From the NCBI GenBank assembly GCA_964481195.1, contig CAYZTB010000004.1:24306-88305 (forward strand): a DNA stretch of 64,000 nucleotides, given 5' to 3'. The notes beneath the pieces were generated by a model. The model was not told the origin of the DNA. It made no database searches and saw nothing but the letters and a program-made list of their open reading frames with translations. This document shows positions 15,484 through 28,539 of the stretch, in pieces. Numbering within the stretch: the first letter of the stretch is position 1; every line of letters begins with the position of its first letter. A program made the position numbers and the translations under genes. The stretch is from an uncultured Bacteroidia bacterium. GTDB lineage: Bacteria; Bacteroidota; Bacteroidia; Palsa-948.

Positions 15484-16464
15484 ATGGTAAAGAAAGTATT
15501 TTCTTGTGCATTTATTTTTCGTAATAATAATATTTCAGCTATTCTTTGTCTTCTCCCTATTTCCTTATTCCTATTACCTAATCCCTTAGCTTCTCAACCT
15601 GCCGAGTACCGCACCACCCGTGCCGATTACATAGAAAAATACAAGGATATTGCCATAAAAGAAATGATGGTAAACGGCATTCCAGCAAGCATAACATTGG
15701 CGCAAGGCATTTTAGAATCGGATGGAGGCAACAGCGCCTTAGCTATGTATGCAAACAATCACTTTGGTATTAAGTGCCATAAAGAATGGAATGGAGCCAA
15801 ATACATTCAGGATGATGATGAGAAGAACGAATGTTTCCGGAAATATAAAACGGCCGAGGAATCTTTTGACGACCATTCAGAGTTTCTGAAAACACGTGGC
15901 AGGTATGCTACTCTTTTTGAACTTCGTAAAACCGATTACAAAGGCTGGGCCGATGGATTGCGAGAAGCAGGCTATGCTACCGACAAAAGTTACGCTGCAC
16001 GACTCATTAAATTAATTGAGGACAACAAGCTCTACCAATTTGACCGCATGCAAGAAATGGCAATAGATAGTAAGGACAAGAAAAACCCGCAGCCACAAGT
16101 TATAAAACCAACGAATACTTCATCGCCAGCTAAAAAGATTTTTTTGAATAATAGAATAAAATATGTAGTGGTAGAGGATGGCGACACATACTATAAAATT
16201 GCGCAACGCTTAGATATGCGACTGTGGCAGCTGCACAACTACAACGAAACCGGAAAGCAAACTTGTTTGGAAGTGGGCGATATTGTTTACATGCAACCCA
16301 AGCGCAGGCATTCTCAAAAGGAACAATTTCATACACTGCGCTGGGGCGAAAGCATGTATTACATCTCCCAGCTTTATGGAATTAAGATGCGACATCTTAA
16401 CCGCCTAAACAAAATGCAGGATGGGCAAGAGCCCGCAGCAGGACAGAGGATTAAGTTGCGTTGA
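15484..16464 (+). CDS. GH73 glucosaminidase with two LysM domains (peptidoglycan hydrolase)
   Basis: IPASITLAQGILES, NNHFGIKCH, AGYATDKSYA, two LysM repeats. Confidence 0.93.
   Translation: MVKKVFSCAFIFRNNNISAILCLLPISLFLLPNPLASQPAEYRTTRADYIEKYKDIAIKEMMVNGIPASITLAQGILESDGGNSALAMYANNHFGIKCHKEWNGAKYIQDDDEKNECFRKYKTAEESFDDHSEFLKTRGRYATLFELRKTDYKGWADGLREAGYATDKSYAARLIKLIEDNKLYQFDRMQEMAIDSKDKKNPQPQVIKPTNTSSPAKKIFLNNRIKYVVVEDGDTYYKIAQRLDMRLWQLHNYNETGKQTCLEVGDIVYMQPKRRHSQKEQFHTLRWGESMYYISQLYGIKMRHLNRLNKMQDGQEPAAGQRIKLR
15556..15590. repeat. Degenerate 7-mer tandem array (CCTWWTN x5) in the signal-peptide region
   Basis: CCTATTT CCTTATT CCTATTA CCTAATC CCTTAGC. Confidence 0.55.
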
Positions 16465-16644
16465 CTTCGACAAGCTCAGTCAACGGGGAGTTTTTTGTGT
16501 CCGAGTAATTTCTGGTAGTTGAGCAGTTTCTGATGATTGAGCTGCTCCAGTGGTTGAGCAGTACCTGGTAGTTGAGCTGCTCCGGTGGTTGAGCAGTACC
16601 TGGTGGTTGAGCAGTACCTGGTGGTTGAGCTTGTCGAAACCACC
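16459..16644. repeat. Family B inverted REP pair enclosing a 7-unit 17/18-bp tandem array
   Basis: CGTTGAC-TTCGACAAGCTCA-GTCAACG at 16459-16485; TTGAGC cores at 16519, 16537, 16554, 16572, 16589, 16607, 16625; terminal GGTGGTT-GAGCTTGTCGA-AACCACC. Confidence 0.9.
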
Positions 16645-16654
16645 GTTAATAAGA

Positions 16655-16948
16655 ATGAAAGGCTGGATGTATATTTTAGAATGTTCTGATGGTAGCTATT
16701 ACACAGGCAGCACCAATAATTTGGAATATCGTTTTCAACAGCATCAAAATGGAGAGGGTGCTAACCATACTAAAAAGCACTTACCTGTGAAACTTGTGTA
16801 CTATGAGGAATATCCAAGAGTAGATCAAGCATTTTATCGCGAGAAACAGGTGCAGGGCTGGAGTCGAAAAAAGAAAGAAGCAATGATTCATAGCAAGCCG
16901 GAGATATTGCCCGAACTATCTAAAAACTACACTCAATTTCCACAATAA
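16655..16948 (+). CDS. Stand-alone GIY-YIG nuclease (UPF0213/YhbQ-like)
   Basis: MKGWMYILECSDGSYYTGST, RFQQH, AFYREKQVQGWSRKKKEA; the track's upstream extension is translated repeat. Confidence 0.9.
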   Translation: MKGWMYILECSDGSYYTGSTNNLEYRFQQHQNGEGANHTKKHLPVKLVYYEEYPRVDQAFYREKQVQGWSRKKKEAMIHSKPEILPELSKNYTQFPQ

Positions 16949-16959
16949 ATTTATTGATT

Positions 16960-17106
16960 CGGCAACTGGCAAGCGCTAAAGCAGACCCCGATGTTGGGTA
17001 TAGGTTAAGCCTCTGTCAGATTTAGAAGGACAGCTAAGCTGCCAGAAAATAATCGAGCGATGGTTACCCTTCGCTCAACGGGAGCCAACCTGTTGCTATA
17101 GGCAAC
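16960..17106. other. Possible attC-like recombination site
   Basis: Outer CGGCAAC...GTTGCTA ends ~140 bp apart, GC-richer than the flanks, abuts the TPR gene stop; internal symmetry is weak. Confidence 0.35.
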
Positions 17107-17109
17107 TAA

Positions 17110-17863
17110 CTATTTACAAATTCGTTCAGTAATATTATCAATTCGAATTTTATATCCAATCATTTCCTCTTCGCTTCCATGAAAATAGGTAAGCGATATT
17201 TTGCTTTTAGCTTCATTTGCAAATTTACATGCTTCCTTATGATTGTTTAATCGCTCTAGTATGATTATTTTTGTAATTAGAGCCTTAGACTTTCAGGATA
17301 TATTTTCAGTGCTGTATCAATCAGCGTAAGCGCAAGTTGTATGTTTTCCTGAGCGAAGGCTAAATGCGCTTGTTGAACTAGACCAACCTCATTAGTTTTG
17401 GAGTCAGTTTTAAAATTGTCTATTTCAACTTGAGCATCATTATACAACTTGTGTTTTATGTAAACTTGCGAAACTGCATCGACAAAATAATAGTCATTAG
17501 GGTTTTCCGAATTTAGATAACGAAAATCTGAAACCGACTGCTTTACTGAATCTAAATTATTATAACATTCAGCACGGAGCTTGATAATTATTGTGCTGTC
17601 GATTGGTTTATTGTTAATATAGTTTTGTGACATTTTTCCTTTAATTCTGAATTCTTGTAAGTTTCTTAATGCAGCTTTTAAGTCTTTTAAAGCTTCAGGG
17701 TAATCTTTTTTTCCATAAAAGCGATTCCTCTGTAAGCTAACAATTCTGGGTTATTAGGATCTTCAGTTAATGAGTAGTTTAGAATTTTAACAGCATCATC
17801 TGATTGAGAAAATAAATTTACTGATAAAAATGTTAGGACTGAAAAGAATAACGTTGGCTTCAT
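17110..17863 (-). pseudogene. Secreted TPR protein with two -1 frameshifts
   Basis: MKPTLFFSVLTFLSVNLFSQ...PNNPELLAYRGIAFME; frameshift in an A7 run (17706-17712); middle ORF 17277..17633; second shift near 17292; tail ...KIRIDNITERICK*. Confidence 0.75.
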
Positions 17864-17955: not shown

Positions 17956-18303
17956 TTAGCCCAACTCAGCCAATATTTTCTCAATGGATATCTTCAAGCG
18001 AGGAATATCGGCATACACAACATTCCACACTTGTTTACTGGAGATGCCGAAATATTCATGAGCAATAACGTTTCGGAAAGCTTTAATTCTGTACCATTCT
18101 ACATCTAGATATTTTGCTTTGAGCTCATCTGAAAGTACATTAACTGCCTCGCCAATTATTTCCATTTGCCGCTCCACCGCAGACTGCACCAGAATATTGG
18201 AGCAATAGGCACTCTCATCCATTCCTTTTGTAAATAACAGAATGTGATTCATGGCATCTTGAACGTGAAGCAGGCGTTGCTTATCTCCAAGCGAATTTTT
18301 CAT
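17956..18303 (-). CDS. hepT: HepT/DUF86 HEPN ribonuclease toxin
   Basis: AVERQMEIIGEA and RNVIAHEY (Rx4H plus Tyr). Confidence 0.9.
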   Translation of the reverse strand: MKNSLGDKQRLLHVQDAMNHILLFTKGMDESAYCSNILVQSAVERQMEIIGEAVNVLSDELKAKYLDVEWYRIKAFRNVIAHEYFGISSKQVWNVVYADIPRLKISIEKILAELG

Positions 18304-18593
18304 CAGGGTCTTTCGAAAAGAAGAACTTTGCTTTTATCGACAAATGGACGGATATATTTTGATATTCCATCTTCTGAAACCAAATCAATCTTTTTCCCAA
18401 TAATTTTTTCAAGGTCTAGCTTCCAGCCTATAAAATCGAGTAAACTCACTTTTTTTTGTGTATAATCTACATCTACTAGCAAATCAATATCACTCTGTTC
18501 TGTTTGCTTGTTTTGAGCGTAGGAGCCAAATACATAGACACTTCTGACAGGAAGATTTTGAAAATAATCTTTTATAATCTGTAGGTTATTCAT
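18303..18593 (-). CDS. mntA: MNT minimal nucleotidyltransferase antitoxin
   Basis: VFGSYAQNKQTEQSDIDLLVD; 1-nt overlap with hepT; -7 element (TATCTTTG on minus) at 18601-18608. Confidence 0.9.
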   Translation of the reverse strand: MNNLQIIKDYFQNLPVRSVYVFGSYAQNKQTEQSDIDLLVDVDYTQKKVSLLDFIGWKLDLEKIIGKKIDLVSEDGISKYIRPFVDKSKVLLFERP

Positions 18594-28492: not shown

Positions 28493-28539
28493 TGTCTGCC
28501 CAGTCCCTGAGCTTATCCAAGGACGGGAAGGCGCAGACA
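28493..28539. repeat. Degenerate family B REP inside a hairpin
   Basis: TGTCTGC..GTCC-CTGAGCTTATCCAA-GGAC..GCAGACA; core matches TGAGCTTGTCGAA at 11/13. Confidence 0.6.

What the first reader, a model, noticed from the sequence alone, without database searches (positions are those of the whole stretch)
16459..16948. GIY-YIG nuclease preceded by an inverted REP pair and an expanding 17/18-bp tandem array
Seen: two hairpins with complementary loops (TTCGACAAGCTCA and TGAGCTTGTCGAA) enclose seven tandem units of GGTRGTTGAGCWG-like sequence. The units become more uniform towards the gene and end 10 bp before the ATG of a 97-aa GIY-YIG protein. A degenerate lone copy lies at 28503. There are no unique spacers, so it is not a CRISPR array. 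Inference: a second nuclease-repeat pairing, in which the tandem units are truncated REP halves amplified by nick-and-repair or slippage next to the cognate nuclease.
Basis: partly seen in the sequence, partly recalled or inferred. Interest (0 to 1): 0.68.

Follow-up and report, generated by a model that had tools for sequence, protein, structure and literature searches.

The report
Small nuclease gene with cognate hairpins
A 97-residue GIY-YIG nuclease gene sits behind two copies of a DNA hairpin whose 13-base loop travels with this gene clade across many bacterial phyla. It resembles the Ssn nuclease/hairpin pairs published in 2025, but the hairpin is of a different, apparently undescribed type.

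Summary
Two hairpins with exactly complementary 13-nt loops (16459-16485 and 16620-16644) enclose a 6.8-copy, 17/18-bp array that ends 10 nt before a 97-aa GIY-YIG gene.

- Around 80 close homologues (70-82% identical, several phyla) the loop motif is about 70-90 times denser within 100 bp of the gene than beyond 1 kb.
- Other small GIY-YIG paralogues carry a different hairpin family.
- Three loop variants track three versions of the protein's last ~10 conserved residues in 77 of 78 loci, on a nearly invariant catalytic core.
- The array units are the 5' stem plus the first five loop bases of the neighbouring hairpins.
- Such partial-unit arrays recur in 39 of 80 homologue loci and look youngest next to the complete hairpin.

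Three things are not shown: cleavage, the mechanism of array growth, and current expansion (contigs from five metagenome runs carry an identical array). Many genomes hold dozens of these hairpins with no such gene.

The closest known system is Ssn/NTS (Chenal et al. 2025). The published SRM pattern is not met, and the protein looks UPF0213/Slx1-like. I file it as a new variant of a known kind.

The parts
15484..16464 (+). Upstream glucosaminidase + LysM gene; its stop codon TGA (16462-16464) lies inside the 5' stem of hairpin 1
   Evidence: Pfam PF01832 at 5e-36 and PF01476 at 4e-11. Same-genus orthologues end ...KIVLKK/...KIVLRK and have no cassette behind them.
16459..16485 (-). Hairpin 1, (-) orientation: on the + strand the loop reads TTCGACAAGCTCA, with stem CGTTGAC/GTCAACG
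   Evidence: DNA fold -6.9 kcal/mol, z -3.2. The same stem and loop occur upstream of the closest homologue, L031.
16511..16616 (+). Six partial units of 18/17/18/17/18/18 nt: 5' stem (GGTRGT) + first five loop bases (TGAGC) + filler (AGTACCT or TGCTCC). U2+U3 and U4+U5 form a 35-nt double unit.
   Evidence: TRF, unit table, comparison with the complete hairpins of L031, proximal-to-distal identity 1.0 to 0.67.
16620..16644 (+). Hairpin 2, (+) orientation: stem GGTGGT/ACCACC, loop TGAGCTTGTCGAA. It is the seventh, complete unit of the array and ends 10 nt before the ATG.
   Evidence: In homologue loci the last (+) hairpin loop typically ends 16-40 nt before the ATG. 24-25-nt exact matches to this hairpin occur in L032, L040 and L041.
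16655..16948 (+). Stand-alone GIY-YIG nuclease gene, 97 aa, with C-terminal tail ...LSKNYTQFPQ (type 'NYTQ', which pairs with loop type A)
   Evidence: Pfam PF01541 at 6e-19. PDB sequence hits are UPF0213 proteins 1zg2 (3.7e-15) and 1ywl. AF2 model: core pLDDT about 90, tail 46-55. Foldseek: UPF0213 then Slx1. 406 related loci found, the top 80 at 70-82% identity.
17063..17092 (.). Possible decayed downstream hairpin (GGTTACCC-TTCGCTCAAC-GGGAGCCAACC). Weak; not needed for the interpretation.
   Evidence: Read from the sequence. The folding program prefers other pairings, and there is no DNA homology to homologue loci downstream of the stop codon.
28493..28539 (+). Degenerate lone copy (loop TGAGCTTATCCAA at 28508-28520, 2 mismatches) inside a larger hairpin
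   Evidence: Uncertain.

Best explanation
The stretch is a nuclease-plus-hairpin cassette. The gene encodes a stand-alone GIY-YIG nuclease of the UPF0213/Slx1-like kind. The hairpins are its cognate sites, with consensus GGTGSY-TGAGCYTGTCGAA-RSCACC.

Shown here:
- The gene clade and this hairpin family travel together across phyla, usually as (+)hairpin-gene-(-)hairpin, often with further copies or doublets.
- The stem is kept by compensating changes while the loop is conserved.
- Three loop variants (A TGAGCYTGTCGAA, B TGAGGYWCTCGAA, C TGAGCGNAGYCGAA) go with three versions of the protein's C-terminal tail on an otherwise nearly invariant core.
- The cassette is absent from the orthologous site in same-genus genomes.

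Inferred:
- The protein binds the extruded hairpin, most likely in single-stranded DNA as Ssn nucleases do.
- The conserved core reads the constant TGAG...CGAA ends of the loop, and the flexible tail reads its centre.
- The protein nicks in or beside the hairpin.
- The 17/18-bp array records repeated local duplications that start in the loop of hairpin 2. Each duplication copies the 5' stem plus TGAGC, and new units are added next to the complete hairpin.
- Whether a nuclease nick followed by misaligned repair drives this, or plain hairpin-promoted slippage, is open.
For: Association:
- Motif density is 4.58, 2.04 and 1.15 per kb at 0-100, 100-200 and 200-300 bp from 80 homologue genes, against 0.05-0.11 per kb beyond 500 bp.
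- 53 of 80 loci have a hit within 300 bp at up to 2 mismatches. The remaining 27 were printed, and most show variant loops in the same architecture.
- 78 of 80 classified loci have a TGAG...GAA-loop hairpin within 350 bp.
- Other small GIY-YIG paralogues have none and instead carry GTCATTGCGAG-type hairpins.

Structure:
- Of 150 copies, 61% have a stem of at least 4 bp, against 8% with shuffled partners. The inner two pairs covary (C:G/T:A and G:C/C:G/A:T).

Specificity:
- Tail and loop agree in 77 of 78 loci, and also for upstream hairpins alone.
- Core identity is the same within and between types (0.837 against 0.834). Pairs with 94-99% identical cores carry different tails and matching different loops.
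- One genome (JAHDRA01) holds both B-type and C-type genes, each with its own loops.

Insertion:
- G002, G004 and G005 lack the cassette after the orthologous LysM gene.
- G003 has one gene-bearing copy and at least 7 gene-less (+)(-) doublets.

Arrays:
- 53 arrays lie in 39 of 80 loci within 400 bp of the gene (0.88 per kb against 0.051 per kb further away).
- The hairpin-proximal unit pair is younger than the distal pair in 8 of 9 informative arrays, p 0.04.

Fold:
- The nearest structures are UPF0213 proteins and Slx1, a structure-specific nuclease.

Precedent:
- Ssn nucleases bind hairpin repeats in ssDNA and cut beside them (PMC11893778).
Against: - No biochemistry: binding, strand preference, cleavage site and the role of the tail are all inferred.
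- Hairpins are abundant without the gene. Only 6 of 27 genomes with at least 15 A/B loops have a close homologue. G024, G058 and G107 have 48-70 loops and no small GIY-YIG gene at all. The hairpins therefore do not need a resident nuclease to persist.
- Tail and downstream hairpin are physically adjacent, so part of the tail-loop match could be linkage. The upstream hairpins argue against this, but cassette-wide recombination would give the same pattern.
- The core tree is poorly resolved, with 77 columns.
- The array shows no length variation in contigs from five runs.
- The AF2 tail has low confidence.
- In this window no clear downstream hairpin remains.
Confidence: 0.62

Rival explanations
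1. The hairpins are an independent REP/BIME-like genomic repeat, maintained by something else or by selection for a host function such as termination or mRNA stability. The GIY-YIG gene is a homing-type parasite that uses them as landing sites. In this reading the nuclease recognises the hairpin in order to insert its own gene there, not to spread or process the repeats.
For: - Many genomes have dozens of hairpins and no small GIY-YIG gene.
- In G024 the hairpins are parts of a ~290-nt G+C-rich composite repeat holding both A and C loops.
- Copies often sit right after stop codons.
- In G003 the gene lies exactly between the two hairpins of what is elsewhere a gene-less doublet.
- Close homologues show a patchy distribution across several phyla.
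Against: - It shares the key step, specific recognition of the hairpin by the nuclease, with the main explanation. It is a variant about direction of benefit, not a contradiction.
- No empty-site/filled-site pair with exact junctions was found.
- No candidate alternative enzyme was identified.
Confidence: 0.22
2. The hairpins act at the RNA level on the nuclease's own transcript, for example a 5'-UTR operator and a 3' stabiliser or terminator for autoregulation. The tandem array is then an ordinary slippage microsatellite without functional meaning.
For: - The last upstream (+) hairpin lies at a fairly constant 16-40 nt before the ATG.
- The downstream (-) hairpin sits at or in the 3' end of the ORF.
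- Hairpin 1 is followed by a T-run.
- The array is invariant in all contigs.
Against: - Both orientations occur on the same strand, giving different RNA loops.
- Hundreds of copies lie far from the gene and in genomes without it.
- No Rfam family matches, and no terminator-like site was called at the hairpins.
- Arrays recur in 39 of 80 loci with independent periods and a polar age gradient, which is more than a chance microsatellite.
- No RNA data could be found.
Confidence: 0.08
3. The co-occurrence is passive. Gene and hairpins are simply cargo and ends of a cassette moved by an unrelated recombinase, integron-like or R-M-associated, and the nuclease has another substrate.
For: - About 40% of the closest homologues lie between a methyltransferase gene and hsdS in R-M operons.
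- In L105 and L032 the gene is flanked by direct repeats of a whole hairpin doublet.
Against: - No recombinase gene is consistently adjacent (clusters).
- The tail-loop covariation on an invariant core is hard to explain if the protein never touches the hairpin.
- Each GIY-YIG clade has its own hairpin family.
Confidence: 0.08

Closest known systems
Ssn nucleases with NTS/SRM hairpin repeats (SsnA of Neisseria meningitidis; Chenal et al. 2025, Nat Commun 16:2388, PMC11893778)
   Same: - A single-domain GIY-YIG protein of about 95 aa.
- The gene is flanked by copies of a short hairpin repeat that also occurs many times elsewhere in the genome.
- Repeat-gene-repeat layout.
- Different clades have different repeats.
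- Some repeat-rich genomes lack the gene.
   Different: - The published SRM search pattern gives 0 hits in the window, in 80 homologue loci and in the paralogue loci.
- In NTS the stem and a 5' flank are conserved and the loop is dispensable. Here a 13-14-nt loop is conserved and the stem varies by compensating changes.
- The protein's nearest solved relatives are UPF0213 proteins and Slx1. Ssn is defined as CDD cd10448, and that assignment could not be tested here.
- Other paralogues in these genomes carry NTS-like CGTCATTGC... hairpins and are better Ssn candidates.
- The tail-loop specificity classes and the partial-unit arrays are not described in the parts of that paper that I read or term-searched ('tandem' occurs 0 times).
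REP/REPIN elements with RAYT transposases (Enterobacteria, Pseudomonas)
   Same: - A short palindromic repeat, often as inverted doublets, dispersed in intergenic DNA.
- One or few copies of a cognate nuclease gene flanked by the repeats.
- Gene-less doublets, as in G003 (L126-L132).
   Different: - RAYT is a HUH/Y1 transposase, not a GIY-YIG protein.
- REPs are tagged by a conserved GTAG/CGTC tetranucleotide at the stem foot, not by a conserved loop.
[quoted passage not shown]
UPF0213 family (E. coli YhbQ, B. halodurans BH0048 PDB 1zg2, E. faecalis EF2693 PDB 1ywl) and Slx1
   Same: - Sequence match to 1zg2 at E 3.7e-15 and 39% identity over the Foldseek alignment.
- Same fold and the same conserved Tyr/Tyr/Arg/His/Glu positions.
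- Slx1 is a structure-specific nuclease acting on branched DNA.
   Different: - No function or DNA partner is reported for UPF0213 proteins in the searched library.
- Slx1 has a RING domain and needs Slx4, whereas this protein is a bare domain with a short variable tail.

Membership tests
GIY-YIG superfamily (Pfam PF01541) | Match to the GIY-YIG catalytic domain above the curated cut-off | tested here: met
   68.6 bits against a cut-off of 22.6, E 6e-19, covering residues 2-74.
GIY-YIG superfamily (Pfam PF01541) | Conserved catalytic positions (two Tyr, Arg, His, Glu) and the alpha/beta fold | tested here: met
   Y6, Y16, R26 and H30 are invariant and E63 nearly invariant in 84 sequences. The AF2 core has pLDDT about 90 with the order beta-beta-alpha-alpha-beta-alpha.
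UPF0213 / YhbQ-like stand-alone GIY-YIG proteins | Single-domain protein of about 90-110 aa with closest similarity to BH0048/EF2693 | tested here: met
   phmmer against the PDB: 1zg2 at 3.7e-15 and 1ywl at 3.5e-9, the only hits. Foldseek ranks the same two first. Assignment to CDD cd10456 itself was not run.
Ssn nucleases (Chenal et al. 2025) | Top CDD hit cd10448 (GIY-YIG_unchar_3), or blastp E < 1e-10 with at least 75% cover to N. meningitidis SsnA (CAX49033.1) | not testable with these tools
No SsnA structure is present in the PDB copy.
Ssn nucleases (Chenal et al. 2025) | Single-domain protein under 150 aa | tested here: met
   97 aa, with one Pfam domain.
Ssn nucleases (Chenal et al. 2025) | SRM element (HGTCWYN0-2YYVSBRHN0-5WNVSBRGN0-2RNCYNB) in the flanks of the gene | tested here: not met
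   The regex was validated on the NTS consensus. It gives 0 hits in the 64-kb window, 0 in L031-L110 and 0 in L004-L030.
Ssn nucleases (Chenal et al. 2025) | Site-specific cleavage of ssDNA only, next to the hairpin | not testable with these tools
   This needs a purified-protein assay.
REP-RAYT / REPIN systems | Cognate gene encodes a HUH Y1 transposase (RAYT) | tested here: not met
   The gene is GIY-YIG.
REP-RAYT / REPIN systems | Repeats occur as inverted doublets dispersed in intergenic DNA and flank the single-copy gene | tested here: met
   G003 doublets L126-L132 and the gene-bearing L003; G058 doublets.
CRISPR array | Identical repeats separated by unique spacers of similar length | tested here: not met
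   The units are head-to-tail with no spacers.
Known structured RNA (Rfam 15) | Match to any covariance model | tested here: not met
   Only three chance-level hits (E 3.7-9) in 15800-17800.

The most novel reading that the evidence does not exclude
UPF0213-type stand-alone GIY-YIG proteins, a large family with no known function, are loop-reading hairpin nucleases. A short, exchangeable C-terminal tail (NYTQ, AYRD or CxNxT) sets which 13-14-nt hairpin loop is recognised. This would make them a second family of programmable site-specific (ss)DNA nucleases, independent of Ssn, with a simple tail-loop code. Their nicking would drive both the spread of the hairpins and the polar growth of partial-unit arrays such as the one in this window.
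Probability: 0.3. Interest if true: 0.8.

Novelty: new variant of a known kind. Interest (0 to 1): 0.62.

Why it matters
Site-specific nucleases for single-stranded or structured DNA are rare and useful, and the Ssn family was the first described (2025). This cassette points to a second group with the opposite recognition logic: a conserved loop with a free stem.

Comparative data already suggest which ~10 residues choose the target. That makes a directly testable specificity code: tail swaps against loop swaps.

It would also give a function to UPF0213/YhbQ-like proteins. It would explain a hairpin repeat that is common in Bacteroidota and beyond, and that generates spurious ORFs, repeat-encoded protein tails and assembly breaks.

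For this particular genome the practical message is modest. It is an inserted nuclease cassette that rewrote the 3' end of a cell-wall hydrolase gene.

Tried and rejected
- **Rfam**: no family matches, so no known RNA.
- **Published SRM pattern**: 0 hits anywhere, so the repeat is not an SRM as defined.
- **Exact empty site**: same-genus genomes lack the cassette, but their downstream genes all differ, so no junction could be reconstructed.
- **Terminal inverted repeats of a larger element**: the inverted pairs 16502-16527/17030-17055 and 16442-16454/17005-17017 are not mirror-ordered. Nothing downstream of the stop codon is conserved in homologue loci. I treat them as chance or decay.
- **Array-length polymorphism**: contigs from five metagenome runs are identical. 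Only contigs were available, not raw reads.
- **RNA evidence**: no run found.
- **Plasmid or phage carriage**: no homologue at 60% identity or more.
- **Literature**: none of the six loop sequences searched (A and B variants, both strands) occurs in any relevant paper. There is no functional paper on UPF0213/YhbQ and no GIY-YIG/REPIN paper.
- **Assignment to Ssn**: the CDD family and the SsnA sequence could not be obtained.
- **Strict dependence of hairpins on the gene**: rejected, because many hairpin-rich genomes lack it.
- **Raw loop counts as a measure of hairpins**: partly rejected. In G058 and on G000 contig C11 some copies lie in coding tandem repeats.
Full report
**1. What is in the window**

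The sequence is as described.
- Hairpin 1 (16459-16485) reads CGTTGAC-TTCGACAAGCTCA-GTCAACG.
- Hairpin 2 (16620-16644) reads GGTGGT-TGAGCTTGTCGAA-ACCACC.
- The two 13-nt loops are exact reverse complements and are the only exact copies in the window.
- Between them, Tandem Repeats Finder reports 6.8 copies of an 18-nt unit at 16511-16630, and also a 35-nt double unit at 88% identity.
- The units are 18/17/18/17/18/18 nt. They become identical towards hairpin 2, which is itself the complete last unit.
- Ten nucleotides later starts a 97-codon ORF (16655-16948) that matches Pfam GIY-YIG at E 6e-19.
- The TGA inside the 5' stem of hairpin 1 is the stop codon of the upstream glucosaminidase/LysM gene.
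- Each hairpin folds on its own as DNA at -5.5 to -6.9 kcal/mol. When the whole 196 nt is folded, the two loops pair with each other instead.

**2. The hairpin is a family with a conserved loop and a compensated stem**

- The window's genome (3.19 Mb, 36.7% G+C) has 7 exact copies of the 13-mer.
- Most are a loop between different complementary stems: gtgggc/gcccac, ggtgcc/ggcacc, gtcaaccc/gggttgac.
- In 20 relatives the motif occurs 0-51 times per genome, while the reversed control occurs 0-1 times.
- Among 150 copies next to homologous genes, 61% have a perfect stem of at least 4 bp, against 8% when 3' flanks are shuffled among copies.
- The consensus is GGTGSY-TGAGCYTGTCGAA-RSCACC, and the inner two pairs covary.
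- Other genera use GTCAnnn/nnnTGAC stems.
- No Rfam family matches.
- None of the six loop sequences searched (A and B variants, both strands) appears in a relevant paper.

**3. The gene and the hairpin go together**

- A scan of one genome per species found 406 loci that encode relatives. The best 80 are 70-82% identical at the protein level.
- They come from Flavobacteriales, Bacteroidales, Chitinophagales, Ignavibacteriota, Planctomycetota, Chloroflexota, Calditrichota, Fibrobacterota and a deltaproteobacterial MAG.
- DNA similarity to the window is confined to the hairpins and the ORF.
- Motif density (up to 1 mismatch) falls from 4.58 per kb within 100 bp of the gene to 0.05-0.07 per kb beyond 1 kb.
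- The nearest upstream hairpin is (+) in 26 of 37 loci. The nearest downstream hairpin is (-) in 53 of 69, often overlapping the end of the ORF.
- In L105 and L032 a whole (-)(+) doublet is repeated directly on both sides of the gene.
- More distant small GIY-YIG paralogues in the relatives have no such hairpin within 1.5 kb. They are flanked by another family beginning CGTCATTGCGAG. This includes the second small GIY-YIG gene of the window's own genome, on contig C20, which has one 1-mismatch copy beside it.
The enrichment is strong and clade-specific.

**4. Loop type follows the protein's tail**

Of the 27 loci without a type-A loop within 300 bp, most that I read have the same hairpin architecture with other loops. 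Three loop types exist:
- A: TGAGCYTGTCGAA
- B: TGAGGYWCTCGAA
- C: TGAGCGNAGYCGAA (14 nt)

They go with three versions of the residues that follow the conserved GWSRKKKEALI helix:
- ...LSKNYTQ[FY]P with loop A in 30 of 30 loci with hairpins
- ...LA[IVMK]AYRD[LI] with loop B in 35 of 36
- ...LHELAKCLNETSH, or LAECxNETH, with loop C in 12 of 12

Further points:
- The match also holds for the upstream hairpins alone, which are separated from the tail by the whole core: 28 A to 2 C, 27 B to 2 C, and 11 C to 0.
- The 71-residue core is no more similar within a type than between types (0.837 against 0.834).
- Pairs with 94-99% identical cores carry different tails and correspondingly different loops, for example L052 and L073.
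- One MAG holds B-type and C-type genes, each with its own loops.
- A core tree also intermixes the types but is weakly resolved.
- The AF2 model has a confident GIY-YIG core and a low-confidence, probably flexible tail.
- Its nearest solved structures are the UPF0213 proteins 1zg2 and 1ywl, then Slx1.

I read this as follows. The core contacts the constant TGAG...CGAA ends of the loop, and the tail reads its centre. This is inference. Cassette-wide recombination could mimic part of the pattern.

**5. The tandem array**

- The closest homologue locus (L031, 81% identity) has hairpin 1 with nearly the same stem. It then has complete hairpins ggtagt-TGAGCTTGTCGAA-actatc and ggtggt-TGAGCTTGTCGAA-accacc, and no array.
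- The window's units GGTAGTTGAGC and GGTGGTTGAGC are therefore the 5' stem plus the first five loop bases of those hairpins, followed by 6-7 nt of filler.
- Such arrays are a family trait. 53 arrays lie in 39 of 80 loci within 400 bp of the gene, 17 times the density further away. Periods range from 9 to 140 nt.
- In the arrays I read, breakpoints lie within or at the edge of the loop.
- Ten partial-unit arrays abut one complete hairpin. In 8 of these the two proximal units are more alike than the two distal ones, in 1 they are equal and in 1 less alike (means 0.93 and 0.81, sign test p 0.04). New units seem to arise next to the hairpin.
- This fits a break or stall in the loop followed by misaligned resynthesis. 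It does not tell nuclease nicking from slippage.
- In the window's population, contigs from five microbial-mat runs carry the array unchanged. There is no sign of ongoing expansion, though contigs hide rare variants.

**6. Mobility and limits of the pairing**

- Same-genus genomes G002, G004 and G005 keep the two upstream genes but have no cassette after the LysM gene. Their downstream genes all differ, so no exact empty site exists.
- G003 (same genus) has one copy in which the gene lies between a (+) and a (-) hairpin. It also has at least seven gene-less (+)(-) doublets of the same hairpins. This layout resembles IS/MITE or RAYT/REPIN pairs.
- In a sample of 151 genomes of the class, 13 have a close homologue. 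At least 10 A/B loops occur in 9 of those 13 against 28 of the other 138 (odds ratio 8.8, p 5e-4).
- Only 6 of the 27 genomes with at least 15 loops have the gene.
- G024, G058 and G107 have 48-70 loops and no small GIY-YIG gene at all.
- In G024 the hairpins are parts of a ~290-nt G+C-rich composite repeat. In G058 they form intergenic doublets, and some counts come from a coding repeat.
- The hairpins can thus live without a resident nuclease. The gene may be a user of a pre-existing repeat as much as its propagator.

**7. Comparison with the known**

The nearest published system is Ssn (PMC11893778). These are single-domain GIY-YIG proteins of CDD family cd10448. They bind the NTS/SRM hairpin repeat in ssDNA and cut upstream of it, in an NTS-ssnA-NTS layout.

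Shared features:
- protein size and domain
- the repeat-gene-repeat layout
- clade-specific repeats
- many dispersed copies

Differences:
- The SRM pattern gives no hit.
- In NTS the stem and 5' flank are conserved and the loop is dispensable. Here the reverse holds.
- The protein is nearest to UPF0213/Slx1.
- I could not test cd10448 membership or similarity to SsnA.
- The CGTCATTGC... hairpins beside the other paralogues resemble NTS (CGTCATTCCC...) more than these do.

UPF0213/YhbQ has no functional literature in the searched library.

Earlier notes of this scan describe the same gene family with hairpins in other genomes, often in R-M operons. I confirmed the R-M context independently. HsdS lies downstream in 32 of 80 loci, a methyltransferase upstream in about 27-30 of 80, and HsdR in 12 of 80. 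The window copy is not in such an operon.

**8. Verdict**

- The finding is one more copy of a widespread cassette that is apparently undescribed in the literature. It works like Ssn/NTS but differs in hairpin logic and probably in protein subfamily.
- I rate it a new variant of a known kind, with interest 0.62.
- The most valuable lead is the tail-loop correspondence, which turns the function of this protein family into a simple bench test.

Noticed in passing
L031-L110 (homologue loci): About 40% of the closest homologues sit inside restriction-modification operons in the same orientation. An HsdS gene (PF01420) lies directly downstream in 32 of 80 loci, an N6-methyltransferase upstream in about 27-30 of 80, and HsdR in 12 of 80. 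The window copy is not in such an operon.
   Followed up: partly
L031-L110, downstream of the GIY-YIG genes: Downstream hairpin-derived arrays have periods that are multiples of three in 34 of 39 cases (p 5e-12), against 6 of 14 upstream. The nuclease ORF often reads through them (up to 412 aa, or 685 aa in L042, where it also runs on into a downstream gene). This gives repeat-encoded tails such as STTKE or SNSEG, suggesting a coding constraint.
   Followed up: partly
G000 contig C20:4764-5009 (L019) and L006, L008, L010, L011, L022-L024, L153: A different clade of small GIY-YIG genes is flanked by a different hairpin family beginning CGTCATTGCGAG. It resembles the 5' end of the Neisseria NTS (CGTCATTCCC...). 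These genes may be the true Ssn-type genes of these genomes.
   Followed up: partly
L007 (G007:C29:13202-13420) and G013:C114:5745-5954: A GIY-YIG domain lies in frame inside an ORF of more than 1100 aa. In L007 this ORF looks like a type I restriction subunit (my reading of the sequence; no Pfam scan was run). It may be an in-frame insertion of the cassette into a large gene.
   Followed up: no
L168-L173 (G024): A 2.0-Mb genome with no small GIY-YIG gene carries dozens of copies of a ~290-nt G+C-rich composite repeat. The repeat holds two type-A hairpins and one type-C hairpin, so it is a BIME-like mosaic.
   Followed up: partly
G000 contigs C12:10195, C18:48575, C47:17313, C2:82817: The window's genome has a four-copy, ~110-nt repeat. 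It combines a B-like (-) hairpin remnant (ccTTCGAGAGCCTCAgg), a type-A (+) hairpin (gtgggc...gcccac) and about 40 conserved bases, with no gene.
   Followed up: partly
window 17956-18593 (- strand): A HepT-like RNase (PF01934) and its MNT-type nucleotidyltransferase (PF18765/PF01909) form a toxin-antitoxin pair about 1 kb downstream of the cassette. The region after the LysM gene differs in every same-genus genome, so it is a variable spot.
   Followed up: no
L178 (G058:C11) and G000 C11:49428, 51204: The 13-mer also occurs once per unit in long coding tandem repeats (222-nt period in G058). Plain motif counts therefore overstate hairpin numbers in some genomes.
   Followed up: no
L179 (Sphingomonas parapaucimobilis plasmid NZ_CP155752.1, 295828-296148): A GIY-YIG gene 46% identical to the window's protein is flanked by C-like loops (TGAGCGAAGTCGAA / TTCGACTTCGCTCA). 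The loop-conserved hairpin family thus reaches Alphaproteobacteria.
   Followed up: no
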